Source: a candidate division WOR-3 bacterium
GTDB lineage: Bacteria; Hydrothermota; Hydrothermia; Hydrothermales; JAJRUZ01
Reading direction: 5' to 3'
DNA length: 64,000 nt
Assembly (NCBI GenBank): GCA_024277525.1
Contig: JAJRUZ010000058.1
Coordinates: 2,767 to 66,766, forward strand
Part shown: piece by piece, positions 9,888-55,656 of the stretch
How the letters are laid out: each line of letters begins with the position of its first letter
Position numbering within the stretch: position 1 is the stretch's first letter
Made by a program: the position numbers and the translations under genes
The notes under the pieces: generated by a model
Told to the model about the DNA's origin: nothing
Databases searched by the model: none
What the model saw: the letters and a program-made list of their open reading frames with translations, nothing else

Positions 9888-11327
9888 TTATTTAATCAAA
9901 ATAAACTTTTCTACTTTGGAAGAAGAGTTAATCCTTAGATTTACAATATACAAACCTGAGTGAAGTTTTTTTATGTTGAATTCCTTTTTATATTTTCCGG
10001 GGTACAACTTTTCTGAAATAAGGGTTAATTTTTCTCTTCCGGATATATCATAAATTTTCAATAAAACAGAGGAATATATTGATAGAGAAAAAGATACGGA
10101 AATTTTCCTATGTGATAAAAAGGGTGTAATTTGGAATTGATTATGTTTTAATTTTTCATTAAATTCTTTTACGAAAAGTCCTGTAATTTCAGCGCCGTAA
10201 ACATCACCATCATAAAAATAGAGAGAACTATCCGGGTTAAAACCGATATTTGCTCTGTTTGTGAAAACATAAAATTTATTATTTGAGAATATTGTGGGGT
10301 TACTTAAAGGAATTTTGGTTCCGGATGTATCAAATATTTTAAATTCTTCACTTAAAGGATTAGCAGAAAGGTCAAACAATCGTCCTAAAACTTTTAAAGA
10401 ATCAAGTGATGTCCAGGTTACAAAAAGATTGTCGTTAAAAGTTGAAGCACAGGGAGTTATGTGTCCGGAAGATGCTATTAAAGGTCTTAATGATTGAACC
10501 GTTCCGTCAGGATTTACGAATCTTGCATATATTTTCCATCCGTCCGTTTCTTCATCCGTAAATAAAACTATAAATTTTGTACTATCAAACAATGCAAAAA
10601 TAGGGTTATCACTCAATTGGGAAGATCCGTCTATCAGAAAATTTGAGCCCGTTAATGTCCCGTTCTCATTTATAAGCTGCCCCCATATCTCATAATTGTT
10701 TGTATTGTTTACCCAGCATACCAGGTATTCTGAATTTCCGTATGCGAGAGTATAAGCACTGCGCGGGTTCTGAGAAGTTATCTGCAATCCGGCTGTAACA
10801 CTTCCATTTGTATCAATAAACGAACCGAATATCCCGTTTAATGTATCATATGAAACCAAGAAATATAAATTTGTCACAGGATTAAAATGAAGGGTGGAAA
10901 ACCCGCTTAAAAGTGTAAAGGTATCAATGTTGAACTCATTGGTCATTTGGAAAGTTTGAGCATTTATAAATCTGCCTTTTATTACATAACTTCCTGAGAG
11001 TGTATCGGTCCATGCAACAAGAAATTGCTTTCCGTCAAAAGAGACCTGCGGTAAGGCGAGATCAATTTTCTCTTTCATGGATACCGGAGTTGTTCCAAAT
11101 ATATAAGGTGTATCTATAAGAGAATTATCGGTTTTTGATAAAAATTGACCTCTTATCTCTGCTCCGTCTGCCGGAAGCTCTTTTTTCATAACGATCAAAA
11201 ATTTCTCATTACTCTGAGAAAGAGATGTTGCGAATACCGATTCTCCGGATGTTTCTACAGGAAATTCGCTTATTGCCTGAGCCATCAGCCCTGCTGCTAT
11301 CATTGCTACTACTGCTAATTTTTTCAT
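9888..11327 (-). CDS. Secreted repeat (propeller-like) protein with T9SS C-terminal sorting domain
   Basis: 479 aa. Signal peptide MKKLAVVAMIAAGLMAQA. About 7 degenerate repeats of the form F-x-V-x-W-x-D...G...F-x-I-D. The C-terminal roughly 80 aa (KIYDISGREKLTL...GLYIVNLRINSS...KFILIK) fit the por-secretion-tail consensus. Strong RBS AGGAGG lies upstream. Confidence 0.6.
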   Translation of the reverse strand: MKKLAVVAMIAAGLMAQAISEFPVETSGESVFATSLSQSNEKFLIVMKKELPADGAEIRGQFLSKTDNSLIDTPYIFGTTPVSMKEKIDLALPQVSFDGKQFLVAWTDTLSGSYVIKGRFINAQTFQMTNEFNIDTFTLLSGFSTLHFNPVTNLYFLVSYDTLNGIFGSFIDTNGSVTAGLQITSQNPRSAYTLAYGNSEYLVCWVNNTNNYEIWGQLINENGTLTGSNFLIDGSSQLSDNPIFALFDSTKFIVLFTDEETDGWKIYARFVNPDGTVQSLRPLIASSGHITPCASTFNDNLFVTWTSLDSLKVLGRLFDLSANPLSEEFKIFDTSGTKIPLSNPTIFSNNKFYVFTNRANIGFNPDSSLYFYDGDVYGAEITGLFVKEFNEKLKHNQFQITPFLSHRKISVSFSLSIYSSVLLKIYDISGREKLTLISEKLYPGKYKKEFNIKKLHSGLYIVNLRINSSSKVEKFILIK

Positions 11328-24640: not shown

Positions 24641-24713
24641 AGCGGGCGACGGGATTCGAACCCGCGACCACCAGCTTGGGAAGCTGATGCTCTTCCGACT
24701 GAGCTACGCCCGC
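24641..24713 (-). tRNA. tRNA-Gly (anticodon CCC)
   Basis: The reverse complement GCGGGCGTAGCTCAGTCGGAAGAGCATCAGCTTCCCAAGCTGGTGGTCGCGGGTTCGAATCCCGTCGCCCGCT folds as a cloverleaf. Acceptor stem is GCGGGCG/CGCCCGC, D stem GCTC/GAGC, anticodon loop TTCCCAA, T stem GCGGG/CCCGT, discriminator U. CCA is not encoded. Confidence 0.85.
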
Positions 24714-37243: not shown

Positions 37244-38436
37244 TTGGGTAATATTATGAAATCGGGAAAATCAGGAGGATTATATCTTCATTTACCCGTA
37301 AAATATTACTTCGGAATCGGAATATGGGAGAAAAAACTTTCGGATTTGTTACCTTTGCTCGGAAAAAGGGTTCTTTTAATCACAGGCAGAAAATTTGCAC
37401 AAAAACACGGATATGTGGATAAAATAAAAAACATATTTGAAAGTTGTAATATCAAATTTTTCCATTACAATAAAATATCTCCTAATCCTAAGACTCATGA
37501 AATAGAAACCGCAGGAGAACTTGCAAGGAGGGAAAAGATAACAGGACTTTTGGGTTTCGGAGGAGGAAGTGTAATGGATGCAACAAAGGCAATCTCAATG
37601 TCTGCGGTAAATAAAGATAAAATATGGAGTTACACCATGAGACAAAAAACACCAGAAATTTCTCCTCTCCCTTTCGGTCTTATACCAACAACTCCTGCTA
37701 CGGGTTCTGAACTTAATTCCTCCGCAATCATTACAAATACCCGCGAAAAAAGAAAATGGGGAATTTTGATGATAGCATTTTCCCGAAATTTTCAATTGTG
37801 GACCCCTTACTTTCAAAAACTCTTGATTTAAATTATTTATCTCTATGTGCAATTGACATAATTACCCATATGTTAGAACCCTTTATAACAGGGTTTTATA
37901 AAGCGGAAATTCAAAGGGGCATAGCCAAATTTTTTATAAAAAAAACAATTGACACAATCAGAGCATTAAAAAAAGAGCCGAATAATACAGATTTAAGGGG
38001 AAACATGCACATTTTATCTGGTCTTGCCCTTTCAGGAATTGCAACAAGGGGAACGGGAGGTTTTCATGAATTGCACTGGCTGGAACATATTGTATCAGGT
38101 TTTTTTGATAATGTTTCACATCCTGCAGGTCTCTCAATTCTTCTTATTCCTTGGTTAAAATACAGATGGGAGAAAAATAAAGAAAATATAACTGATTTGT
38201 TTTCATTTATACTTCAAAAAGAAAATGTTAAAAAAGAAGAAATTTTTGAATATCTTGATAAGTTTTATAAAGAAATAAATCTGGAAAGGAGTTTCAGGAA
38301 ATACGGAATTAATGAAAAAGACATTGATAATTTTGTAAAAGAATATGCATTTCTTACCGCTAAATTTCCGAAATTCTTTCCGGAAAAAATTGATGAAAAG
38401 AATTTAATAAAAATTTTTGAACAAACATTATTATAA
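37244..38436 (+). CDS. Iron-containing alcohol dehydrogenase, split into two ORFs by a frameshift in the homopolymer-rich 37744-37770
   Basis: The N-terminal part has the GGGSVMD motif. The C-terminal part (37756-38436) continues the Fe-ADH fold (…LEPFITGF…HELHWLEH…). One extra base around AAAATGGGGAATTTT restores REKRK(W/M)GNFDDSIFP. Confidence 0.75.
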
Positions 38437-39348: not shown

Positions 39349-42186
39349 ATGGTAAAACTCCTCCTAATAATGCTTTTTAGCGGAGTATCAAATGAGAGCA
39401 TCCCCATCAGTATGGTGGGATTAAGGTTTGACCCGTTGAAGGACGGAGAACCTGTGATACCTGCTGCTTTGAAGGCTGAGGAGAAGGGAACTTGTCTTTA
39501 CATTGTTCAGTTTACAGGTCCCATCAGGCAGGAGTGGAAACAAGCCTTAAAGAATAAGGGGGTAGAAGTCTACGGTTATATTCCTTATTATGCTGTATTT
39601 GCGAGGATGGATGCAAGTAAGAAGAAAGAAGTTTCGTCTCTTCCTTTTGTGAGGTGGGTCGGACTTTTTCATCCTTATTATAAAATTTCTCCGAAGGTAT
39701 TGAATCCTGAGCCTATAAAAGAATCGCGCGGGACGCTTATAAAGGGAAAGGGATGGAAGCATTATGAGGATCCTTTATATGTTGATGCTCCGAATTTAAA
39801 GAGTTATGTTTTATATGGTCTTCCTTATGTTGATTGGTCATCTGTTGCGGTGCAGGTAATGGGCTTAGGAGGCGAAGTGAAGAAGGTTGAGGGAATATTT
39901 CCCGGTAGAATGATAATATGGGCTCCTCCTTCTGTAATAAATGACCTTGCAAAGATTGACGGAATTTATTACATTTATCCTTATCATCCAAAAACTTTTC
40001 TTAATAATACCACCAAATATGTTATACAAAGTTACATATTGACAGTTGGTCCTGATGACTGGCCTGATGCAACCGCGGATACGGTTCTTTCCGGAGCATT
40101 GCCCATTTGGGACCATAATATAAAGGGGCAGAAACAGCTTGTTACGGTAATGGACACAGGGGTTGATGATGCTTCTTGTTGGTTTGTTGACCCTCTTGGG
40201 AATCCTATAGGTCCAAATCATATAGTGCTCAGACAATACACAGATGAGGGTGGAGATTTAATAGATGACCAGACTTGCGGACATGGAACACATGTTGCAG
40301 GAACCGTGGCGGGAGATCCGACACGTGGAACTGGAGGAGTAGGAGAGCCAGGATTTGACTATGCAGGAAATGCTTACATGGCAAAAATATATGTTCAAGA
40401 TATTGGATATGCAAGAGGAACATCGTGTGTATTAAATATTTTATCTTTTGCTACTTCTGCTCAAGTTGCCCATGATACCGTACCACTGGCAAACCATAGC
40501 GGTGCAAGAATTCACACAAATTCATGGGGATATGGAAGCACAACAGCAGGAGATTATAATTATGAAGCAATAGATGTAGATGCTCTTAGTTTTTTACTCC
40601 CGTATCAAGATTTTCTTTTCACTTTTGCAGCAGGAAATGATGGCCCGGCTGACAGTTCGGTGACACCCCCCTCAACTGCAAAGAATTGTATTTCAGTGGG
40701 TTCAACATACAGGTATAGTTATGATTCAAATTCGGATACATTATCTGCTTTTTCGTCAAGGGGACCTACGGATGATAACAGGTTCAAGCCTGATTTAACT
40801 GCACCCGGTGGAAGATATACAGAAGACCCAGTTACTCCTTACAGGGGAGATTGGAGGGAGTTCATTCTTTCTGCATATCCCAATAGTGCAACATCAACTT
40901 GCGTAAGCGCCGGAATGATGGGAACTTCAATGGCAACACCTGCGATGGCGGCTGCTGCTGCAATGGTGAGGCAGTATTATGAAAAGGGATTTTATCCATC
41001 CGGTGATTCCTCTGCTGTTGATTCATTTAATCCTTCCGCAGCGCTTGTTAAAGCTACACTTATTGTTTCAGCAGAAGATATGAAAGCGGATAGTGCCGGA
41101 ATAGATCATTCCATTCCTAATTTTGAAGAAGGTTTCGGAAGAATAAAGCTTGACAGTGCTTTGTATTTTTTGGGGGACCTAACGAAGTTGCTTGTTCAGG
41201 ATACAAGGATAGAGACAAATTTGGTCTGGATCATCGGAGACCCCACAACCCCTACTTATGAGCAAAAACCTTTGGATGCTCCTCGTTTGTTAACTACAGG
41301 GGATGCTGATACTTTTGGGATTGAGGTGCTTTCTGATACTGTGCCCTTCAAAATCGCGCTTGTCTGGAATGATACAGCAGCAGCTGCGCTTGCTGCTGTT
41401 ACCCTTATTAATGACCTTGACTTAATAGTAATAGACCCTGCTGGGGTTGAATATCACGGTAACGATCTTACGAATGGACAATCAAATCCCGGTAGTGTGG
41501 TCTTTGACAGAAGAAACAATGTTGAAATTTTCCAAGACACGCTCCCCGCGGTAGGGACATGGCTTGTAATAGTGAGTGCATTTCAGGTTGCAACATCTCA
41601 ACCCCAACCTTATGCAATTGCTGCGATAGGAGATATTGCATGGGCAAATATTGTTGGTATTAAGGAATGCTGGGTATCTGCCTATGTTAAATCGGATGGA
41701 ATACTTTTGAAATGGACTGGAAATGAGAAGTCTTTATATAAAATTGAAAGAAAAACAGAAGGTGAAAAGGACTTTATAAAAATTGCAGAAGTGCGGGCTA
41801 CGGAATATCTCGATAAAGATGTGAAGGAGGGATTTATATATGAATATAAAGTTTTTAAAGGAAAGAAACTCATAGGTAAAGTAAAGGTCACATTTAAAGG
41901 TCTAAAAACACAGCTTTATGCTCCGAAACCTTCCTTCTTAAAAGCAGGGGAAAAGATTCAGATTTCATACACACTTGCAAAAGACGCCTTTGTTGTTTTT
42001 AAGGTTTATAATACCGCGGGAAGACTTGTAAGAACTATTACACTCGGAAAACAAAAACGCGGATTTCACTCAATAGATTTTGACGGAAGGGATAATAAAG
42101 GCAGACTGTTACCTCCCGGTAAATACTTCTACCGAATGTTTGCGGGAAAGATAACAAAACAGAAACACTTTGTTATTGTTGAATAA
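39349..42186 (+). CDS. Subtilisin-like S8 serine peptidase with T9SS C-terminal sorting domain
   Basis: 945 aa. Signal peptide. Catalytic triad motifs VMDTGVDD (Asp), CGHGTHVAGTVAG (His) and GTSMATPAMAAAAAMV (Ser). C-terminal roughly 80 aa (FKVYNTAGRLVRTITL...GKYFYRMFAGKI...FVIVE) is por-secretion-tail-like. Confidence 0.85.
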   Translation: MVKLLLIMLFSGVSNESIPISMVGLRFDPLKDGEPVIPAALKAEEKGTCLYIVQFTGPIRQEWKQALKNKGVEVYGYIPYYAVFARMDASKKKEVSSLPFVRWVGLFHPYYKISPKVLNPEPIKESRGTLIKGKGWKHYEDPLYVDAPNLKSYVLYGLPYVDWSSVAVQVMGLGGEVKKVEGIFPGRMIIWAPPSVINDLAKIDGIYYIYPYHPKTFLNNTTKYVIQSYILTVGPDDWPDATADTVLSGALPIWDHNIKGQKQLVTVMDTGVDDASCWFVDPLGNPIGPNHIVLRQYTDEGGDLIDDQTCGHGTHVAGTVAGDPTRGTGGVGEPGFDYAGNAYMAKIYVQDIGYARGTSCVLNILSFATSAQVAHDTVPLANHSGARIHTNSWGYGSTTAGDYNYEAIDVDALSFLLPYQDFLFTFAAGNDGPADSSVTPPSTAKNCISVGSTYRYSYDSNSDTLSAFSSRGPTDDNRFKPDLTAPGGRYTEDPVTPYRGDWREFILSAYPNSATSTCVSAGMMGTSMATPAMAAAAAMVRQYYEKGFYPSGDSSAVDSFNPSAALVKATLIVSAEDMKADSAGIDHSIPNFEEGFGRIKLDSALYFLGDLTKLLVQDTRIETNLVWIIGDPTTPTYEQKPLDAPRLLTTGDADTFGIEVLSDTVPFKIALVWNDTAAAALAAVTLINDLDLIVIDPAGVEYHGNDLTNGQSNPGSVVFDRRNNVEIFQDTLPAVGTWLVIVSAFQVATSQPQPYAIAAIGDIAWANIVGIKECWVSAYVKSDGILLKWTGNEKSLYKIERKTEGEKDFIKIAEVRATEYLDKDVKEGFIYEYKVFKGKKLIGKVKVTFKGLKTQLYAPKPSFLKAGEKIQISYTLAKDAFVVFKVYNTAGRLVRTITLGKQKRGFHSIDFDGRDNKGRLLPPGKYFYRMFAGKITKQKHFVIVE

Positions 42187-42222: not shown

Positions 42223-43116
42223 ATGATGGGTATATTTTTAATATTTTTTATATTTTTCCCCAGGATAGATGTATTTCCGAGGGTGCATGATGTGGGAAAA
42301 ATATATGAAGGAGAATTAATAAGAGAAGTATTTAAAATAGTGAATACAGGAGATGATACACTTAAAATAGAAAAAGTCGGCACAACCTGTTATTGCACAG
42401 CTGCCCTTCTGGACAGGGATTATGTTATAAAAGGAGATACTTTAAAAATGCTTGTTACCGTGGATACAAAAAACAGGGAAGGAGAAATAGAGGAACAAAT
42501 ATTTGTTAAAACAAATGACCCTTATGAGCCCGTTGTGCGCTTAAAGGTTATTGCTACCGTCATTCCGAAACCGAAGCCGGAGATAGAAACTCCCGAAGTT
42601 GTTAATGCAGGCTTTCTTTATGTAGGGGAAACAGTAAATATTCCTTTAACAATAAAGAATCCTGGTCTTGCTGACCTTATAATACCGAGGGTGGTCTCTT
42701 CACTCAGTTGTGACGTTATTGCAGATTTTCCGTTGGTCGTGCCCCCCGGAAAGAAAAAAATTGTGACACTTCAAATAAAGCCTTTTAAACCGGGTGTTCT
42801 GAATGAAGAAATTCGGCTTGTAACCAACATTCGTTATTATCCCTATCATCGCATAAAAGTCACGGGAACGGTAAGAAAATCCTCCTCGGTTGTCTTTTTA
42901 CCTTTTGTTTTTGATAAAATAAATGATACCCTGTATCTTATAAACCAGACTCAGAATCCTCTTTATATTGAAAATCTTAGCATTACCGATGATATTGTTA
43001 TTAACTCATCCAAAATTGCTCCGAAAGGGACCTTGAAAGTTTTTATCCCGATTGAGAAATTACCGAAAAAAGGTGAAATAAAGCTTAATTTGCGTTTGCC
43101 TTATGAAAAAGAATAA
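42223..43116 (+). CDS. DUF1573-like (Ig-like fold) protein, two tandem domains
   Basis: 297 aa. N-terminal hydrophobic segment. Domain 1 has VHDVGKIYEGE...FKIVNTGDDTLKIEKVGTTCYCT and domain 2 has GFLYVGETVNIPLTIKNPGLADLIIPRVVSSLSCDV. These match the F-x-F-x-N-x-G…L-x-I…SCGCT pattern of DUF1573. Confidence 0.55.
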   Translation: MMGIFLIFFIFFPRIDVFPRVHDVGKIYEGELIREVFKIVNTGDDTLKIEKVGTTCYCTAALLDRDYVIKGDTLKMLVTVDTKNREGEIEEQIFVKTNDPYEPVVRLKVIATVIPKPKPEIETPEVVNAGFLYVGETVNIPLTIKNPGLADLIIPRVVSSLSCDVIADFPLVVPPGKKKIVTLQIKPFKPGVLNEEIRLVTNIRYYPYHRIKVTGTVRKSSSVVFLPFVFDKINDTLYLINQTQNPLYIENLSITDDIVINSSKIAPKGTLKVFIPIEKLPKKGEIKLNLRLPYEKE

Positions 43117-44791: not shown

Positions 44792-47020
44792 TCATATAAT
44801 ATTTTTTAATTCCTCTGAATATTTTATTATCTGAAGGGCTTTCTTTTGGATTTGCCGAGCCAGATATACTTCATGATGATTTAAACATTCTTTTATAAAT
44901 TCAATAAATTTTTTTTCCATTTCAAATATAATTCCGAGTCTTACATCTTCACTCCACCGGTCATACATTTTTTTAAAAGGCTCTCCCCTGATAAGGGAGA
45001 ATGCTTTTAAGAATTCTTTCTTAGACGATTTCCAGTCATCTGCTCTTTTTAAATTTGCCCGTGAGATCCTCTGTTTAAACTCAGAATAATCAGTGGTGAA
45101 ATATATTCCTTTATTTATTAAAACCCGAACCCTTCCTCTCCAAGAGATTTTAATGAGGTGTCCGGGAATTTTTAATAATTTTTTCAGTCTAAATAAAACA
45201 GCAGATAAACTGCGTGAAGGTTTTAAACTGTTATACCAGAAATTATTATAGAGAGATTTAACAGGAATTTCTTTGCCGGGCTCTCCTGCTCTCAATACAA
45301 AATGAATAAGAAAAGCGGCATCCTTGGGATATAATTTTGCTTTTATGCGTTTATGGTTTTTATAAATGACTAAGGGTCCCAAGAATTTCAAGGTATATAC
45401 AGGTATTTTTTTGTTAAAGATAGGCAATTTCAGGATGAAATGGGGTAACCCTGTATCTTCACCTTTCTCAAGCAGTTTTATAACCGGTAAAGGAAAGAAA
45501 AATATGTTAAAATATATAACATCTTCATGTCCCTTTTGTTTTGCAAATTTTATAGCCTTTTTATAAAAACTCAATTTTCCTGTCCTCTGTGCTTCCCTGA
45601 GTAAGAACACAATATAGAGATGGGGTATTTTCTTTTCTTTGTTTGTAAAGGGAATGTTTTTATTCATCAAAAGAGCGCAATATAACATGTATTTTCGGAG
45701 TCCAAATTTCTCCATGAGCTCGTAATTCTGGTTAAGCAGTTCAATTGCTTGCTCTTCTTTATTAAGTGCTTTATATACAGAAGCCATTTTAAGAGAAGCT
45801 ACATTTATATAATGAAGATATTGAAGCCTATCAGAAAGGTCAAGGGTTTCGGCGAGATAATGCAAACACTCTTCCAAGTTTCCGCGAAAGAATGCACAGT
45901 TTGCTCTTGCAAGTGAGAGAGCCGAGCCGGAACCGACTAAATTTTTTTCTGCTTTTCTTATACATTTCTTTGCCTCATCAACCCTGCCTTTTCCGGAAAG
46001 GGAGACTGCAAGTTTTTGTAAAATAATCCCCCTCATTTCGCCCTTTTCTACTTTAAGGAGTCTTTTCAAAATATTTATATTTTCACCGCATTCCCTGAGG
46101 TGTGAATGAAAAGAAGCAATCGCGCGTTCATAAAAAGGATAAGGAAGAAGGGGAAGCAATTCTTTACATTTTGATAACATTTTATATGCTTTTTCCTCAT
46201 CACATAGAAAAGAGGCAGTGGCCCCGATATGAAAATAAAAAATGAATTTAAGAGCAGGCTCCTTTATTCCGGACATCTTTTTTTTGAGAAGAGGTAAAAG
46301 TTTTTCCAATTCCCTTATATTGCCCATCCAGTGAAGTGTAAGAATCTCCAAGAATAATGTTTTAAGCGCAGAATAGTTTAATCCCTTCTTTTCAAATTTT
46401 TTTCTTAAATTCTTCAATTTTTCATAATATTCGGGAAACGGAATCTCCCTGAATAAAATTGAAAGTTTATCAAATTTTCTTCGGTCCGAAAGGTATTCAT
46501 CCGGAATTTTCTTCAAAATCATAACTTTCGGACAGGATGGCAGATTACTGAGCAATAAACCGGCTTTTTCATAATCACCGTTTTTTACATATTCCTTTAC
46601 CTCCGAAACAATTTTCATTGACTCTGCTGTTTTTTCTCCGAAAAATTGATATGGATTTTCTCTACTCCTTCCCGTAAGTGCATATCGCTTCCATATATTC
46701 CATATCCCTTTTACTGAAATTTCAATTCCATCCTTTTTAAGAATTTCTCTTGCTTTTTTGATAGTTAAAGAGGGGTCCTTTTCTTTCAGAAACATAACCT
46801 TGTGTTCAATTTCATCAGATGTTCTGTTCCATGCTCTTTTATATATTCTCTTTCTTTTAAGCCCATCAATTCCGTTTTCTTTATACCATCTCACCCACCT
46901 GTGAACCGTTTGATAAGGAATTTTGAAAAAACGGGAAGTCTGTCTCAGAGCCTCTCCGTTTTTTAGATAATATTCTATTATTTTAATCCTTTTTTTAAAT
47001 AATTCATCCGTTTTGTTCAT
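44792..47020 (-). CDS. Chimeric transcriptional regulator: IS630/Tc1-type transposase paired HTH (no DDE domain), TPR-like helical region, then C-terminal OmpR-type winged helix plus BTAD (SARP-like)
   Basis: 742 aa. N-terminus ALRQTSRFFKIPYQTVHRWVRWYKENGIDGLKRK plus a second HTH. Middle region has TPR-like repeats. C-terminus has KLYPKDAAFLIHFVLRAGEPGKEIPVKSLYNNFW...LSAVLFRLKKLL (trans_reg_C-like) followed by a BTAD-like helical tail. Confidence 0.55.
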   Translation of the reverse strand: MNKTDELFKKRIKIIEYYLKNGEALRQTSRFFKIPYQTVHRWVRWYKENGIDGLKRKRIYKRAWNRTSDEIEHKVMFLKEKDPSLTIKKAREILKKDGIEISVKGIWNIWKRYALTGRSRENPYQFFGEKTAESMKIVSEVKEYVKNGDYEKAGLLLSNLPSCPKVMILKKIPDEYLSDRRKFDKLSILFREIPFPEYYEKLKNLRKKFEKKGLNYSALKTLFLEILTLHWMGNIRELEKLLPLLKKKMSGIKEPALKFIFYFHIGATASFLCDEEKAYKMLSKCKELLPLLPYPFYERAIASFHSHLRECGENINILKRLLKVEKGEMRGIILQKLAVSLSGKGRVDEAKKCIRKAEKNLVGSGSALSLARANCAFFRGNLEECLHYLAETLDLSDRLQYLHYINVASLKMASVYKALNKEEQAIELLNQNYELMEKFGLRKYMLYCALLMNKNIPFTNKEKKIPHLYIVFLLREAQRTGKLSFYKKAIKFAKQKGHEDVIYFNIFFFPLPVIKLLEKGEDTGLPHFILKLPIFNKKIPVYTLKFLGPLVIYKNHKRIKAKLYPKDAAFLIHFVLRAGEPGKEIPVKSLYNNFWYNSLKPSRSLSAVLFRLKKLLKIPGHLIKISWRGRVRVLINKGIYFTTDYSEFKQRISRANLKRADDWKSSKKEFLKAFSLIRGEPFKKMYDRWSEDVRLGIIFEMEKKFIEFIKECLNHHEVYLARQIQKKALQIIKYSEELKNII

Positions 47021-47196
47021 AAAAAGGCGGAAAATTATAAGGAGATTTCTTTAAAAAAATCAAATAAAAATTTAAATTGATGAAATCATTGAGCCACGAG
47101 CAAATCAGAGTATGTAAATAGCCCGATTTTATGAACAATTTGATTTATTATTTTTATATAAGGTTCAAATCCTTTTTAAATTTAGGAGAATTAAAA

Positions 47197-50100
47197 ATGG
47201 TGAATATTTTTATAATGTTCTTATTTGTATTTGACACTCCGAATCCTGCCCCGCAAAATGAATTTCTCCCTTATAATAGCCCGAAAATCGTTTCTGAGCA
47301 TCCTGATTTTTCTTTATTTTCCTCGGTTTTGCCGAAAAAAGAGCAAGTTTTTTTCGGGCTTCCTGAAGATTTTATAGTAAATGATGACACATCAGGATAC
47401 GGAACCCATCAATATTCACCTGCAATTGCAGTGGATTCCAGGGGAAATTATGTTATTGTATGGAGGGATTCAAGATACGGCGGTGCCCCTTATGTAATTA
47501 TGATGAGAAGGTTTGATAAATTTGGTAATCCCCTTGGTTCTGCAATTCGTGTAAGTGAAAATCCCTCTATAAATACAGACGAAATGTCTCCTGATGTTGC
47601 AATTGACTCTGCTGGTAATTTTGTTGTTGTGTGGCAGGATTCCCGAAATGGAACCATCATGGCACAACGCTTTGATGCGGAAGGAAACAAAATAGGAACA
47701 AATTTTCGAGCAGACAATTCTGAGGGAATAAGTACTGGACAGAATTCTCCATCCGTTGCAATGGACCCTGCGGGCAATTTTATAATAGTGTGGCGGGGAT
47801 ATGCAGGCGGTTATTACATATTTGCGCAGATGTGGGACCCTAAAGGAAATCCGATAGGAAATAATTTCAGAGCGGACAATAATCAGGGAGTATCCCCTCA
47901 ATCATCTCCGGATATTGCTGTTGATTCTTCTGGAAATTTCGTTGTTGTATGGGTGGATACATCGGAAGGCTCAGGGATACTTACTGTCCGTTTTCAAAGA
48001 TGGCTTAAAGTAGGATTCCCATTAGATGCTGCAATCAGAGCGGATAATAATCAAGGAAAAGCACCTCAATATGACCCTGTGATTGCAATGGACCGCGAGG
48101 GCAACTTCGTTGTTGCGTGGAGGGACACAACAGCAGGATACGGACAATGGAGAATCAGTGCCCAAAAATGGTCAGCAGCCGGAAACCCGGTTGACACACT
48201 TTTCAGAGCAGATAATTTGGAAGGAACTTCATATCAATATTATCCCTCAACAGCATTTTTACCAAACGGAGATTTCATTATTGCTTGGCAGGACAGAAGC
48301 TCCTATCCTTATTTAATAATGGCACAGAGGTGGACCTTTTGGACAAATACCCCGATTGGGACAAATTTCAGGCTTGATAACGGCGAGGGAACCGGTATCC
48401 AGTCTTATCCGGATATAGCATTCCTCTCGGAGATGGACAGATTCATAGGTGTGTGGCAGGATAGAAGAATCACTGGGTCAATATATCGGATATACGGGCA
48501 AATATGGGATTCTACGGTTGCATCAGGAAGTAATATATTGATTGATGAGAACAAAGGAGATATATATCAGTATTATGCAAGTTGTGCCATGGATTCCGCA
48601 GGGAATTCGGTTGTAGTATGGGTAGATTACAGAGAAGGCTCGGCTTATATTTATGCTCAGAGATATGATGTTAATGGAAATCCTATCGGCACAAATTTCA
48701 GGGCGGATAATGGCAGAAACCGTAGAAGTGAATACTCACCCTCTGTTGCTATGGATCCGACCGGGAACTTTGTTGTTGTATGGAGGACTTCTTACCCTTA
48801 TTACATATACGGTCAACGCTGGGATGCCAACGGCAATCCGGTAGGAGATACCTTCCGGGCTGATAACTGGACAGGGGACCCCGGGCAATACACCCCGGAT
48901 GTCGCAATGGATGCAAATGGAAATTTTGTAATTGTATGGTATGACACATCATTAGCTGGCTACACAAACTTTAGAATCACTGCTCAAAAATGGGATGCTA
49001 ATGGAAATCCTGTGGGAACCCTTTTCAGAGCAGACAACGGGGAAGGAACAGCGGTTCAGTTTTCCCCGATAGTAGAAACAGATGCAATAGGGAATTTTGT
49101 GGTTGCCTGGGTTGACGGAAGAGAAGGGCGGTATAAAATTTATGCTCAGAGATGGGACCTTAATGGACTCGCAGTAGGAACAAATTTTAGGGCAGATAAT
49201 AATGGAAGTGAAATTTATTCTTCTCAATACGAGCCGAGCATAGGAATGGATAATGCAGGAAATTTTGTAATTGCGTGGAGAGAGTATTACAGCGGACAAG
49301 ATAGAATACGAGCGCAAAGATGGAATTCTGCGGGAACTCCACTGGGTTCAAACTTCCGTGCAGACAATGGAGAAGGAACAAACACACAAAGGTTTCCGAG
49401 CGTTGCTATGCATCCGCAAGGAACACGCTTTGTCATATCCTGGCTTGACCAACGCTATCCGGATTGGGATATAATCGCACAAGTATGGGATGATTCAATA
49501 CCCATCGGGAATAATAAATTGATGAACAATGACCCCCTTCCTTTTGCACATCAGAGAGGTTACAGCAAAAAAGCAATTGCATTTAAAAATAATAAAGTGA
49601 TGCAAGTATGGGAAGACAGCAGAAGAGGAAAAAATTGGGATATTTATGCAAAAATTATTCCACTGGAACCTCCGATAGGTCCGCCCACACTTATTTCTCC
49701 CTCTGATAATGCCTATCTAAATAACACTGCAACTATTTTTCATTGGTCAAAGGTCCAAAATGCTTTCTCCTATGAATTCCAATTATCACCCGATTCTTTA
49801 TTTTCTGCATACTTGAGCTTTGAAACCGATGATACTTTCTTTATCCAAAGTCTACAAGAAGGGGGCTATTACTGGCGTGTTAGAGCGGTATCATTTGTAA
49901 ATGTCAAAAGCTCATGGTCTGAAACTTGGAAATTTGAAGTGGATTTAACCGCCCCTGATGCACCCGTGCTCAATTTCCCGACAAACGGCATATGGCTCGG
50001 AGATACTGCGATATCTTTTGACTGGAGCCCGGTAACTTTCTCTTCACAAAAACAAATCCTAAAAGATATAGAAATTCTTTCAAGCGCACCCGTACATTAT

Positions 50101-50892
50101 ATTATTCAGATAGATACACTCCTCTCCTTTACAACCCCTGTTTATGTTGATACCGTTGATGTCACTCCCCTCACGGTTACACTTCCTTATCATCTCGTTT
50201 ATTTCTGGAGGGTAAAAGCTTTTGATGACGCGGGAAATACAGGAAATTTCAGCCCTGCTGACTTTTTCAGAATAGATACAATCCCCCCGCTCATTGACTC
50301 TACAACCCGATATCCAAAAGCAGTAGCCTCTTCGGGTCCTTTCCCGATACAAACATGGGTCTGGGATAATGCAGGAGTTGATACGGTTTATCTTGCTTAT
50401 AAAAGACAAGAAGATACCGACTGGATTTTAACACAAATGCAACACATCGGAAATAACTGGTTCACAGATACAATTCCTTCCGTAAGTCAACAGGATGATA
50501 CGATACAATACTATATTCTTGCAAAAGATATCACGCTTCCGGCAAATATATCTTCTGATCCGAAAAATGCTCCTACCCTCTTTTATTCATTTATCGCAAA
50601 TACTGTCTCGGTGTCAGAAAACTCCTCAACGGGTCAAAAATTTTCTTTTACCCTCTTAAAAAATATAGGCAACAAATTTATATTTAAGCTGTTTTTACCA
50701 AAAGAAGACAGAATTATACTCCGCATTTTTGATGCCTCTGGTCGATTGATAGGTTCCCCGATAAAAGGTGTTATAAAAAGAGGTAATGTAAAAATTATAT
50801 GGACACCGTCAAATAAAAAAAGTGGTATTTATTTTTATCATCTTAAAAGTTATTATGGAAAATATCAAGGAAAGGGGATAATAATAAAGTAA
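47197..50892 (+). CDS. Giant secreted repeat protein: signal peptide, about 14 propeller-like tandem repeats, two FN3-like domains, and a T9SS C-terminal sorting domain
   Basis: RBS GGAG lies 8 nt upstream of ATG 47197. Signal MVNIFIMFLFVF. Repeat consensus: SP-x-VAMD-x-x-GNFVVVW-x-D...IYAQRWD-x-x-GNP-x-G-x-x-FRADN-x-x-G. FN3-like YYWRVRA and YFWRVKA. C-terminal RIFDASGRLIG...GIYFYHLKSYYG...IIIK. Confidence 0.7.
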   Translation: MVNIFIMFLFVFDTPNPAPQNEFLPYNSPKIVSEHPDFSLFSSVLPKKEQVFFGLPEDFIVNDDTSGYGTHQYSPAIAVDSRGNYVIVWRDSRYGGAPYVIMMRRFDKFGNPLGSAIRVSENPSINTDEMSPDVAIDSAGNFVVVWQDSRNGTIMAQRFDAEGNKIGTNFRADNSEGISTGQNSPSVAMDPAGNFIIVWRGYAGGYYIFAQMWDPKGNPIGNNFRADNNQGVSPQSSPDIAVDSSGNFVVVWVDTSEGSGILTVRFQRWLKVGFPLDAAIRADNNQGKAPQYDPVIAMDREGNFVVAWRDTTAGYGQWRISAQKWSAAGNPVDTLFRADNLEGTSYQYYPSTAFLPNGDFIIAWQDRSSYPYLIMAQRWTFWTNTPIGTNFRLDNGEGTGIQSYPDIAFLSEMDRFIGVWQDRRITGSIYRIYGQIWDSTVASGSNILIDENKGDIYQYYASCAMDSAGNSVVVWVDYREGSAYIYAQRYDVNGNPIGTNFRADNGRNRRSEYSPSVAMDPTGNFVVVWRTSYPYYIYGQRWDANGNPVGDTFRADNWTGDPGQYTPDVAMDANGNFVIVWYDTSLAGYTNFRITAQKWDANGNPVGTLFRADNGEGTAVQFSPIVETDAIGNFVVAWVDGREGRYKIYAQRWDLNGLAVGTNFRADNNGSEIYSSQYEPSIGMDNAGNFVIAWREYYSGQDRIRAQRWNSAGTPLGSNFRADNGEGTNTQRFPSVAMHPQGTRFVISWLDQRYPDWDIIAQVWDDSIPIGNNKLMNNDPLPFAHQRGYSKKAIAFKNNKVMQVWEDSRRGKNWDIYAKIIPLEPPIGPPTLISPSDNAYLNNTATIFHWSKVQNAFSYEFQLSPDSLFSAYLSFETDDTFFIQSLQEGGYYWRVRAVSFVNVKSSWSETWKFEVDLTAPDAPVLNFPTNGIWLGDTAISFDWSPVTFSSQKQILKDIEILSSAPVHYIIQIDTLLSFTTPVYVDTVDVTPLTVTLPYHLVYFWRVKAFDDAGNTGNFSPADFFRIDTIPPLIDSTTRYPKAVASSGPFPIQTWVWDNAGVDTVYLAYKRQEDTDWILTQMQHIGNNWFTDTIPSVSQQDDTIQYYILAKDITLPANISSDPKNAPTLFYSFIANTVSVSENSSTGQKFSFTLLKNIGNKFIFKLFLPKEDRIILRIFDASGRLIGSPIKGVIKRGNVKIIWTPSNKKSGIYFYHLKSYYGKYQGKGIIIK
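47416..49660 (+). repeat. In-frame tandem degenerate repeats (about 50-56 codons each, about 14 copies) inside the giant protein gene
   Basis: Recurrence of the GNFVVVW / FRADN / SP motifs at a 150-170 nt period in the translated frame. Confidence 0.6.
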
Positions 50893-53681: not shown

Positions 53682-54937
53682 TTATTTTTTTCGCAGAATA
53701 ACTATATATTCATATTTCATCGTTTCTTCTTTTTCTCCCTTTATGTTACCGGGTGATGTGAGGGAAAGCATTCTTTTGTTAAATATTCCCCTTACTATGG
53801 TTTTTTTATGTTTGAATCCGAAATTTTCAAAAAAAACGGCACAAATTTTATCTGTTGGAAGTTGGATTCCTTTGACCCTCCTATTTCCCACTACAAAGCA
53901 TACATATTTATTTGTTTTAACTTTTCTTGATATAACGGAGATTGAATTGTATAAATCATAATAAAAAGAATAAACTTCTTTTGCCCTTTTTTCGTCTTTT
54001 TGTTTTATTTTATATAAAAATTTATAAAGAACATCCGAAGGCAGGTTTTCTTTTATTTCCCTTTTTTGACTTCCTAAGGATTCCTTATCAACTTTTTCCT
54101 CAATTCCTAACCATTGAAGCGGTAATCTTGAGAATTGACCGTAAGCTACGGTAGTCTTTGAATCTCCATAAGGCGGAGAGGTTATAACTAAGTCTATACT
54201 TTTGTCTTTTATATTGATTTCATGTAATATGTTTTTATTATCAACCAAGATTTCTACCCTTTGAGGTTTATTTTCTTTATAAAAATTTGTTAATAAACTA
54301 ATATTTCCGAAAACAATTTGTTTAAAAACATTAAATACATTTTTATTTCCGTTTTCTTTTTTTAAAAGTTTAAATTCGTTATATTTAATATTTGCGACCC
54401 TTTTCACTGTTTCGGAAAAAGATACGATAAAGAAATTTCTGAGATTATGGTCTTCAATCTTGTGAATAGTTTTTTCAGTTTTGACAATTCATCTATTACT
54501 TCTTTTTTAAACCAGTAATTTATATTAAAGAAATTTACTTTTTCCGGCTTTGTTTTTTTAAATTCTTTTTCTAATTTTAAGAAACTTTTCAAAAGAGATT
54601 TTTGATTAAGTGGGGTTATTCTAACTTTTGTAATTAACACTGCCAAAGGATTTATATCATATCCTATGAAGTTTCCGCCATTTATTAAACATTCTACACC
54701 TACCACACCTGAACCCATAAAAGGGTCCCATATCACATCTTTTTCTTTGGAATATAGATTCAAAAGTCTTCTTACAACCAAAAAATGAAACATTGCAGGA
54801 TAAGGATGAATGCCGTATACTCCTTTTGACGCAGGAACCTCACTGAAGTCAAAACTTTCATCCCTTATTCTTTTAAATACGGATTTCTCTTTTTTTATTT
54901 TTGAATCTTTTATTTTAAACAATTCTTTTTGTTTCAT
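53682..54937 (-). CDS. DNA methyltransferase (N6-adenine/N4-cytosine; motif I DPFMGSG then motif IV SPPYGD), split at an A5/T5 homopolymer (54416-54420)
   Basis: The upstream ORF has the SAM motif WDPFMGSGVVGVEC. The downstream ORF has DLVITSPPYGD. The two ORFs overlap by GTGA. Adding one T on the coding strand yields a continuous ...ISLSYLFSETVKRVANIKYNEF... Confidence 0.75.
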
Positions 54938-55656
54938 ATTCTTAATTCTTTTGGTAAGTCCTTTAATCTTCTGATCCAGGGCAAACTTTTAAGATAATCC
55001 AATTCTTTCAATTCGTCTCTCACATATGCAATAAATCCTTCTTCATTTATTTCATTCGTTTTAGAAAGAGGTAATTTAGTATCTATGGTTATCAAGTATG
55101 TCCGTTGATTTAATCTTACTTGGGGAACTTCTTGTTTCCATCTTTCTCTTAAGGTTCTTTTACATGTTATAAAAATAGCTCTGTCAGGGGTTTTGATTGC
55201 AACTTCTGTGGAAGGTATTACAATATCTATTCTACCTAAGATTTTACTTTCCTTGCCCTTTGGAATCTCACATTCTATCCCTATGAACGAAAGGAACTTA
55301 TATACCATTTTTTCAAAATTTTTACCTCCCCTTGCTTTTCTCATACTTCCTAAATCCTTTTCTAACTTTTGAACTAATTTTGCGAATTCCAAAAATATAT
55401 CGGTAGTTTTCTTAACAAAATTTTTAATGCCTTCTGTTTCTAATATTTTTTTAAACTTATTTCTAGTCTCCTTACTTTGCGCCGTTAACCATTCTTTTGC
55501 TAATGTTCGGAGAGCTTTTTCCTCGTACTTTAGAAAAATTTCATGTCCTGTTTCATCTGCTTTAACAAGTGCTTTTCCGAAATTTTTCTTTATTTTCGCT
55601 TTAATAATGATGCTTTCCACAAATTCATTATAATAAATTAAATTTGATTTATTCAA
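54934..55656 (-). CDS. Candidate type II restriction endonuclease (PD-(D/E)xK-like), partner of the downstream methyltransferase
   Basis: 240 aa. A 4-nt overlap with the methyltransferase start suggests translational coupling. Possible nuclease core GRIDIVIPSTE...ECEIPKGK / FITCKRTLRERW. No other homology is recognisable. Confidence 0.4.
   Translation of the reverse strand: MNKSNLIYYNEFVESIIIKAKIKKNFGKALVKADETGHEIFLKYEEKALRTLAKEWLTAQSKETRNKFKKILETEGIKNFVKKTTDIFLEFAKLVQKLEKDLGSMRKARGGKNFEKMVYKFLSFIGIECEIPKGKESKILGRIDIVIPSTEVAIKTPDRAIFITCKRTLRERWKQEVPQVRLNQRTYLITIDTKLPLSKTNEINEEGFIAYVRDELKELDYLKSLPWIRRLKDLPKELRI

What the first reader, a model, noticed from the sequence alone, without database searches (positions are those of the whole stretch)
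47197..50892. 1232-aa secreted protein with about 14 novel propeller-like repeats plus FN3-like domains and a T9SS sorting tail
The gene encodes a signal peptide followed by about 14 tandem repeats of roughly 50 aa each. The repeat consensus is SP-x-VAMD-x-x-GNFVVVW-x-D…IYAQRWD-x-x-GNP-x-G-x-x-FRADN-x-EG, which I cannot assign to a named repeat family. The count is compatible with two 7-bladed beta-propellers. Two FN3-like domains (YYWRVRA / YFWRVKA) follow, and then a C-terminal por-secretion-tail-like domain. The repeat region may also be prone to assembly collapse or expansion.
Basis: seen in the sequence. Interest (0 to 1): 0.6.

Follow-up and report, generated by a model that had tools for sequence, protein, structure and literature searches.

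The report
Secreted double beta-propeller surface protein
This gene encodes a large surface or secreted protein of an uncultured WOR-3-like bacterium, in which 14 repeats form two seven-bladed propellers on a stalk of three Ig-like domains ending in a type IX secretion tail; it is a divergent member of a very large family that is already catalogued but has never been studied.

Summary

The repeats are not new. Of 49 homologues, 46 match NCBIfam TIGR04275 ("beta-propeller repeat protein") and 33 match NF053835 ("PDIAV motif-containing lipoprotein"). At least 27,779 50%-identity clusters match at E<=1e-30. The query is a divergent member below both cut-offs. No Pfam model, solved structure or paper covers the family.

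Assembly collapse is unlikely. Repeat DNA is only 60-72% identical, and 13-14 repeats is the usual count in relatives.

Conservation is strictly periodic, with no blade-specific polar residues. This favours a non-catalytic, possibly Ca2+-stabilised, binding or adhesion module over an enzyme.

The find is ordinary in kind, uncharacterised in detail, and of modest interest.

The parts
47184..47189 (+). Shine-Dalgarno-like AGGAGA, 7 nt upstream of ATG 47197
   Evidence: Read directly from the sequence. It supports the 47197 start over the upstream in-frame ATG at 47131.
47197..50892 (+). CDS, 1231 aa plus stop codon
   Evidence: ORF list. A database entry from NCBI has the identical 1231-aa sequence (P0001).
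47197..47256 (+). Hydrophobic N-terminus MVNIFIMFLFVF..., a putative but atypical Sec signal peptide
   Evidence: Read from the sequence. There is no basic n-region and no lipobox Cys. Homologues have canonical signal peptides. No signal-peptide predictor was available.
47368..47388 (+). N-terminal DFIVNDD strand, which carries the outer-strand (strand D) motif and probably completes the truncated 14th blade ('velcro' closure)
   Evidence: The family conserves D58 (0.95), F59 (0.97) and N62 (0.99). Repeat 14 lacks strand D. The model shows a short beta bridge at aa 59-60. The closure itself is inferred.
47407..48564 (+). Repeats 1-7 (aa 71-456), predicted first 7-bladed beta-propeller
48565..49671 (+). 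Repeats 8-14 (aa 457-825), predicted second 7-bladed beta-propeller; repeat 14 is truncated to three strands
49672..49944 (+). FN3-like domain 1 (aa 826-916, contains YYWRVRA)
49945..50277 (+). FN3-like domain 2 (aa 917-1027, contains YFWRVKA)
50278..50598 (+).
50599..50640 (+). Flexible linker NTVSVSENSSTGQK
   Evidence: pLDDT is below 50 at model residues 313-320.
50641..50889 (+). C-terminal sorting domain, a divergent T9SS type A CTD (aa 1149-1231)
   Evidence: TIGR04183 scores 13.8 bits (cut-off 23) and PF18962 scores 13.4 bits (cut-off 27). BLASTP to P0122 residues 516-612 gives E 1e-9; that stretch overlaps P0122's PF18962 match at residues 543-623, 43.4 bits. The model shows a confident beta-sandwich.

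Best explanation
The gene encodes a cell-surface or secreted protein of an uncultured WOR-3/Hydrothermales-like diderm bacterium.

Proposed route and layout:
- After Sec export, the C-terminal beta-sandwich tail (a divergent T9SS type A sorting domain) directs passage through the type IX secretion system. The tail is probably removed and the protein attached to the surface, or else the protein is released.
- A stalk of two FN3 domains and one Ig-like domain holds out a rigid head.
- The head is two seven-bladed beta-propellers built from 14 repeats of the PDIAV/TIGR04275 type. The N-terminal DFIVNDD strand probably clasps the last blade.
- The head most likely acts as a non-catalytic binding or adhesion platform. 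The ligand is unknown; a glycan or another repetitive surface polymer is the best guess.
- The periodic acidic motif (W-x-D after strand B; N/D-D/N-x-G in the loop joining blades) plausibly forms Ca2+ sites between blades that stabilise the fold outside the cell.

What is shown: the repeats, the predicted fold and domain order, family membership by homology, and homology of the tail to a validated sorting domain.

What is inferred: T9SS use in this organism, surface attachment, the binding function, and Ca2+ binding.

Confidence by part: about 0.85 for the fold, the domain order and extracellular targeting; about 0.5 for the non-catalytic binding role; about 0.3 for the Ca2+ sites. The overall figure of 0.6 is a composite.
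For: Repeats and fold:
- There are 14 repeats of four strands each. The model has pLDDT 88 and pTM 0.83.
- Foldseek aligns double-propeller proteins over the whole model: GH74 at TM 0.46-0.48 and Elp2 at 0.43.
- In giant relatives the best-matching stretch covers about 380 profile positions, which is 7 repeats.
- Repeats 7, 13 and 14 are the most diverged, as expected for the blades at the ends of each propeller.

Stalk and tail.

Extracellular setting:
- Among the 119 listed homologues other than the query itself, I counted about 61 with a precomputed PF18962 (T9SS tail) hit and about 29 with PF00404 (dockerin).
- 31 of the 50 proteins scanned match TIGR04183.
- Relatives also carry cohesin, FG-GAP, VCBS and RTX modules.
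- Two other proteins in the window carry such tails. One (9888-11327) passes the TIGR04183 cut-off at 30.3 bits.

Non-catalytic reading:
- Every position in the propeller region conserved at 0.75 or more across 96 sequences is part of the periodic motif or is a Gly or hydrophobic residue. No blade-specific polar residue is conserved.
- No neighbouring gene is conserved across 80 loci.

Ca2+ idea: in CylK, the best structural match, the loops connecting subsequent blades hold blade-bridging Ca2+ sites, one at each blade junction (PMC8916777).
Against: - No member of the family has been studied experimentally, and no ligand is known.
- The tail is below the curated T9SS cut-offs for this protein.
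- T9SS machinery genes are not in the window, and the rest of the genome was not available.
- The N-terminus lacks a basic n-region.
- In the query the family's acidic positions are partly eroded: the D of DIYAQ is lost in 12 of 14 blades, and VNDD has become ADN-x. This weakens the Ca2+ analogy for this particular protein.
- The structure is a prediction, and I could not inspect its coordinates.
Confidence: 0.6

Rival explanations
1. The double propeller is an enzyme, for example a polysaccharide hydrolase or lyase, with its active site in the cleft between the two propellers as in GH74 xyloglucanases, or on a propeller face as in CylK or Vgb.
Against: Sequence identity to these enzymes is 11-13%. 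No glycoside hydrolase family gives a significant match: only one giant relative (P0067) has a Glyco_hydro_43 hit, and it scores 23.9 bits, below the 32.2 cut-off. Family conservation is purely periodic, with no blade-specific Asp, Glu or His that could mark a single active site. There is no conserved neighbourhood of carbohydrate-utilisation genes. The module is reused up to dozens of times in giant adhesin-like proteins.
Confidence: 0.12
2. The protein is a structural component of the cell envelope, such as a coat or S-layer-like lattice or a spacer, or a protein-protein docking hub. On this reading it does not bind an external ligand.
For: The protein is large and highly regular, and genomes carry many paralogues, including tandem copies. 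Dockerin and cohesin partners occur in relatives. PorZ, a T9SS component with two 7-bladed propellers plus a CTD, shows that this layout can serve the envelope machinery itself (own knowledge; its CTD matches weakly).
Against: There is no evidence of self-assembly. Paralogue numbers and C-terminal anchors vary widely between genomes, which suits variable adhesins better than a core envelope part. The query gives no match to the PorZ model, and homologues match it only in the tail.
Confidence: 0.15
3. The 14 repeats form one very large 14-bladed ring rather than two 7-bladed propellers.
For: The N-terminal outer-strand motif appears to complete repeat 14, and there is no obvious break in the array. 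A preprint reports single-ring 13- and 14-bladed propellers among AlphaFold database models (10.64898/2026.05.19.725729).
Against: Complete 7-bladed propellers superpose on the model at rmsd 2.4-3.4 over about 300 residues, which a 14-bladed ring could not allow. Double-propeller proteins align over the full length. The family's module in giant proteins is 7 repeats, and single-propeller relatives of about 460-490 aa exist.
Confidence: 0.03
4. The repeat number is an assembly artefact caused by collapse or expansion of the array.
For: Tandem repeats can be misassembled. One likely frameshift elsewhere in the window (the Fe-ADH gene at 37244-38436) shows that the assembly is not perfect.
Against: The copies are only 60-72% identical in DNA and share no long exact matches. 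Each repeat has its own sequence. In relatives from many assemblies the repeat HMM detects 13 or 14 repeats in 60 of the 102 repeat-bearing proteins found in the fetched loci, and the alignment of 96 sequences holds 14 repeats throughout.
Confidence: 0.02

Closest known systems
NCBIfam TIGR04275 'beta_prop_Msarc' (beta-propeller repeat protein)
   Same: The query's homologues (33-41% identical, E down to 1e-241) are members: 46 of 49 match, and P0012 and P0002 score 133.8 and 95.2 bits against a cut-off of 85. The repeat has the same register, and the usual count in relatives is 13-14 repeats.
   Different: The query itself gives no TIGR04275 match. Its W-x-D-x-R-N-G...D-I-Y segment, the part that model aligns to, is eroded. 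The family is uncharacterised, and a full-text search found no paper that mentions it.
NCBIfam NF053835 'PDIAV motif-containing lipoprotein'
   Same: It shares the S-P-D-I/V-A-V/M-D repeat motif. It is the only significant NCBIfam match of the query's repeats (E 1.6e-15).
   Different: The score is 57.4 bits against a cut-off of 90. That model is 458 positions long, about the size of one propeller, and describes a lipoprotein. The query has two propellers, no lipobox Cys, and a T9SS-type tail.
CylK C-terminal propeller (PDB 7ron)
   Different: Identity is 11-13% and there is no match at the sequence-profile level. CylK is a Friedel-Crafts alkylating enzyme whose active site lies at the interface with an N-terminal beta-roll domain, and the query has no such domain.
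Seven-bladed propeller lectins of the PLL/BP39L/CV39L family
   Different: Identity is 6-11%. The query does not match the lectin model. No sugar-binding residues could be mapped.
T9SS cargo and components with propeller heads, such as PorZ (PDB 5m11: two 7-bladed propellers plus a CTD), and cargo with an Ig-like domain before the CTD (PPAD, 5ak7)
   Different: The propellers have no sequence relation to PorZ. The family has many paralogues per genome and swaps its anchor for a dockerin in about a quarter of the listed relatives.

Membership tests
TIGR04275 beta_prop_Msarc repeat family | Whole-protein HMM score of at least 85 bits | tested here: not met
   The query gives no match at E<=1. 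Of 49 homologues, 46 match at E<=1e-5, and two that were checked pass the cut-off. The query is therefore a divergent relative by homology, not a member by the curated test.
NF053835 PDIAV motif-containing lipoprotein | HMM score of at least 90 bits | tested here: not met
   57.4 bits, E 1.6e-15.
NF053835 PDIAV motif-containing lipoprotein | Lipoprotein signal peptide with a lipobox Cys | tested here: not met
   The first 70 residues contain no Cys.
T9SS type A C-terminal sorting domain (TIGR04183 / PF18962) | HMM score above the curated cut-off (23 and 27 bits) | tested here: not met
   13.8 bits and 13.4 bits.
T9SS type A C-terminal sorting domain (TIGR04183 / PF18962) | Homology to a validated sorting domain, located at the extreme C-terminus, with a beta-sandwich fold | tested here: met
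   BLASTP to P0122 residues 516-612 gives E 1e-9; that stretch overlaps P0122's PF18962 match (residues 543-623, 43.4 bits). The last 83 residues form a confident beta-sandwich after a flexible linker.
T9SS type A C-terminal sorting domain (TIGR04183 / PF18962) | T9SS machinery encoded in the same genome | not testable with these tools
   Only 64 kb is available and no T9SS core gene was identified in it. Another protein in the window (9888-11327) passes TIGR04183 at 30.3 bits, which is indirect support.
Seven-bladed beta-propeller fold (two copies) | Closed ring of seven four-stranded blades | tested here: met
Fibronectin type III / Ig_Rha78A_N-like domains | Pfam gathering score, or the FN3 fold | tested here: inconclusive
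GH74 xyloglucanases | Sequence family membership and a catalytic Asp pair in the cleft between the propellers | tested here: not met
   The query gives no GH match in Pfam or NCBIfam. No blade-specific acidic residue is conserved. The only similarity is in the double-propeller fold (TM 0.46-0.51).
BP39L/PLL propeller lectins (NF052349) | HMM match and sugar-binding pockets between blades | tested here: not met
   The query gives no match. The pockets cannot be tested without the coordinates.

The most novel reading that the evidence does not exclude
The PDIAV/TIGR04275 double propeller is the head of a very large, wholly unstudied class of surface adhesins or lectins, possibly Ca2+-dependent. 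These proteins are displayed through T9SS tails or dockerins across the FCB superphylum and beyond. The query would represent a divergent sub-type that has lost part of the acidic motif and gained an FN3-FN3-Ig stalk. If so, solving one structure and finding one ligand would annotate tens of thousands of environmental proteins at once.
Probability: 0.3. Interest if true: 0.45.

Novelty: new member of a known kind. Interest (0 to 1): 0.3.

Why it matters
The protein itself is an ordinary kind of bacterial surface protein. Its value is as an example of a very abundant propeller family: at least 27,779 clusters at 50% identity match at E<=1e-30. That family has no Pfam model, no solved structure and no known function, and it is one of the commonest heads on T9SS- and dockerin-anchored proteins of uncultured sediment and hot-spring bacteria. 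Knowing what it binds would help explain how these organisms attach to particles, polymers or other cells.

Tried and rejected
Searches that found nothing:
- Pfam on the query gave no significant repeat family.
- PDB sequence searches with the protein, the family profile and a single-repeat profile matched no propeller; only sorting-domain tails matched.
- Literature searches for PDIAV, TIGR04275, and WOR-3 with type IX secretion found nothing relevant.
- Exact look-up of the protein's contig returned 'not on record', and its cluster carried no name.
- The source genome is not among the GTDB species representatives; the best relative there is 39% identical.

- The AFDB50 fold library was unavailable.

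Ideas tested and dropped:
- Conserved gene neighbourhood: none was found across 80 loci.
- Duplication of a 7-repeat unit: identity at offset 7 (0.44) is no higher than at offsets 1 or 6 (0.43), so there is no clear 7-repeat super-period.
- Horizontal transfer as the cause of the raised GC content (43% against about 33%): the excess lies mainly in codon positions 1 and 2, and GC3 is only slightly raised (0.33-0.35 against 0.26-0.31).
- Asp-box/BNR and NHL identity: the motif spacing differs, and there are no HMM matches.
Full report
**1. The observation**

The frame is open over 47131-50892 (+). ATG 47197 is preceded by AGGAGA 7 nt upstream. It gives a 1231-aa product identical to a database entry from NCBI (P0001).

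Residues 71-825 (window 47407-49671) are 14 tandem repeats. Thirteen are 52-57 aa, and the last is truncated to 41 aa. The motif is Q-x-x-P-x-V-A-M-D-x-x-G-N-F-V-V-V-W ... I-Y-A-Q-R-W-D-x-x-G-N-P-x-G-x-x-F-R-A-D-N. Mean pairwise identity is 40%. The two halves of the array align at 44-47% identity with E 3e-87 and 5e-85, in several registers.

The DNA copies are only 60-72% identical, with one 36-nt pair at 83%. Tandem Repeats Finder reports nothing. The array is therefore old and diverged, and it is not a substrate for assembly collapse.

**2. Structure**

I aligned residues 37-851 with 95 homologues. The resulting AlphaFold2 model has pLDDT 88 and pTM 0.83, is all-beta, and has four strands per repeat.

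Three further observations fit two rings of seven:
- Repeats 7, 13 and 14 are the most diverged.
- In giant relatives the best-matching stretch spans about 380 profile positions, which is seven repeats.
- Single-propeller relatives of about 460-490 aa exist.

Repeat 14 lacks the outer strand. The family-conserved N-terminal segment D-F-x-V-N-D-D (aa 58-64) carries the outer-strand motif. It probably completes that blade and clasps the structure. This closure is inferred, because I could not inspect the coordinates.

**3. C-terminal region**

The model of aa 826-1231 has pLDDT 92.4 and contains four beta-sandwich units:
- FN3-like domain 1 (aa 826-916, YYWRVRA).
- FN3-like domain 2 (aa 917-1027, YFWRVKA).
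- A low-confidence linker, then a terminal sandwich (aa 1149-1231).

The query's own tail is below the curated cut-offs: TIGR04183 scores 13.8 against 23, and PF18962 scores 13.4 against 27. It nevertheless aligns to P0122 residues 516-612 with E 1e-9. That stretch overlaps P0122's PF18962 match at residues 543-623. I therefore regard it as a divergent T9SS type A sorting domain.

Two other proteins in the window end in such tails. The 479-aa protein at 9888-11327(-) passes TIGR04183 at 30.3 bits. The S8 protease at 39349-42186 has a FlgD_ig match and a TIGR04183 score of 19.9 bits.

**4. Family**

The word-indexed search returned more than 1,800 relatives. A profile search of 1.84 billion cluster representatives found 386,717 matches at E<=1e-3, 211,054 at E<=1e-10 and 27,779 at E<=1e-30. 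The weaker matches may include proteins that match only in the tail, because the profile contains the tail columns. The E<=1e-30 set cannot.

Typical members are 880-960 aa: 14 repeats followed directly by an anchor. Among the 119 listed relatives other than the query, I counted about 61 with a T9SS tail and about 29 with a dockerin. Others are giants of up to 7.9 kaa with many 7-repeat modules, together with cohesin, FG-GAP, VCBS and RTX parts.

Named hosts include candidate division WOR-3, Zixibacteria, Calditrichota (including a MAG labelled Caldithrix abyssi), Ignavibacteria, Bacteroidales, Gemmatimonadota, Fermentibacteria, Stahlbacteria, Cloacimonadota, KSB1 and Planctomycetaceae. Several paralogues per genome are common, and tandem copies occur in 16 of 80 loci. 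No neighbouring gene is conserved.

Pfam has no model for the repeat. NCBIfam does. Of 49 homologues, 46 match TIGR04275 'beta_prop_Msarc', and P0012 and P0002 pass its cut-off. Thirty-three match NF053835 'PDIAV motif-containing lipoprotein', and five match the delta-60 repeat.

The query is an outlier. It matches only NF053835, below the cut-off (57.4 against 90 bits). The reason is that its W-x-D-x-R-N-G...D-I-Y segment and its V-N-D-D loop are eroded. No solved structure is detectable by sequence, and no paper mentions these families.

**5. Source and context**

The window's GlmS is 76-82% identical to proteins of WOR-3 or 'Candidatus Hydrothermales' MAGs. The source genome is not among the GTDB species representatives.

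The surroundings are an ordinary chromosome. Genes include PilMNO, GlmS, methylmalonyl-CoA mutase, SurA, LptD, HtpX and an OPT transporter. The gene is transcribed divergently from a 742-aa HTH plus TPR protein, with a 176-bp spacer.

The raised GC content of the gene (41-43% against about 33%) lies mainly in codon positions 1 and 2. It therefore reflects amino-acid composition more than foreign origin.

**6. Function**

All positions in the propeller region conserved at 0.75 or more across 96 sequences belong to the periodic motif or are Gly or hydrophobic residues. No blade carries a conserved polar residue of its own.

This pattern, the lack of a conserved operon, and the reuse of the module in giant adhesin-like proteins all argue against a single active site. 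They favour a scaffold or a multivalent binding head.

The periodic polar residues sit at the end of strand B (W-x-D-x-R) and in the loop that joins one blade to the next (V-N-D-D-x-G). By propeller topology both lie on the same face. In CylK, the best structural match, the loops joining blades hold a Ca2+ site at every junction (PMC8916777). By analogy the acidic motif may bind Ca2+ and stabilise the fold outside the cell. This would fit the co-occurrence with dockerin and RTX modules. It is an inference only, and the query has lost part of the motif.

My best account is a T9SS-sorted, stalked, double-propeller binding protein whose ligand is unknown. Rival readings are an enzyme of the GH74 or CylK kind (0.12), an envelope or docking component like PorZ (0.15), a single 14-bladed ring (0.03) and an assembly artefact (0.02).

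**7. Verdict**

The label 'novel' is overstated. The protein is a divergent member of a very large repeat family that is already modelled but uncharacterised, in a standard layout for FCB-group surface proteins.

Novelty: new member of a known kind. Interest: 0.3.

Noticed in passing
window 9888-11327 (-): A 479-aa protein with a canonical signal peptide. It is a degenerate single-propeller relative of the target's repeats (repeat HMM E 1.7e-11; BLASTP E 4e-6) and has a bona fide T9SS type A tail (TIGR04183, 30.3 bits against a cut-off of 23). It is a distant paralogue in the same window.
   Followed up: partly
window 39349-42186 (+): A 945-aa S8 subtilase with a FlgD_ig / T9SS-like C-terminal tail (TIGR04183, 19.9 bits). 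It is the other GC-rich (41%) gene of the window and is probably another secreted cargo protein.
   Followed up: partly
window 37244-38436 (+): An iron-containing alcohol dehydrogenase is split into two ORFs that overlap in different frames. The N-terminal domain (PF00465) is at 37244-37831 and the C-terminal domain (PF25137) is at 37756-38436. This is a frameshift, caused either by a pseudogene or by a sequencing or assembly error.
   Followed up: partly
window 53682-55656 (-): An N6/N4 DNA methylase is encoded as two ORFs that overlap by 4 nt. The upstream ORF (54404-54937) matches the C-terminal part of the Pfam profile (positions 127-218). The downstream ORF (53682-54407) matches the N-terminal part (positions 1-106). 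An EcoRII-C-like endonuclease ORF (54934-55656) lies next to them. This may be a permuted or split restriction-modification system.
   Followed up: no
window 44792-47020 (-): A 742-aa protein with an N-terminal HTH_28/HTH_32 (IS630-like) domain and TPR repeats, transcribed divergently from the target across a 176-bp spacer. By eye its C-terminus resembles a winged-helix/BTAD activator, but Pfam did not detect this. It could be a regulator of the target, but it is not a conserved neighbour in related loci.
   Followed up: no
loci L026, L030 and L043 (Bacteroidales MAGs); proteins P0183-P0192: Tandem arrays of two or three full-length double-propeller paralogues (about 1190 aa each) occur in some Bacteroidales MAGs. 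Giant proteins of 2.5-7.9 kaa hold up to 27 matched stretches of the same propeller module.
   Followed up: partly
window 42223-43116 (+): A DUF1573 / HYDIN-VesB-like Ig-domain protein. It matches the NCBIfam 'OS_HP2 family (seleno)protein' domain model at 84.7 bits, just below the cut-off of 100.
   Followed up: no
window 24641-24713 (-): The only RNA gene detected in the window is tRNA-Gly (anticodon CCC).
   Followed up: yes
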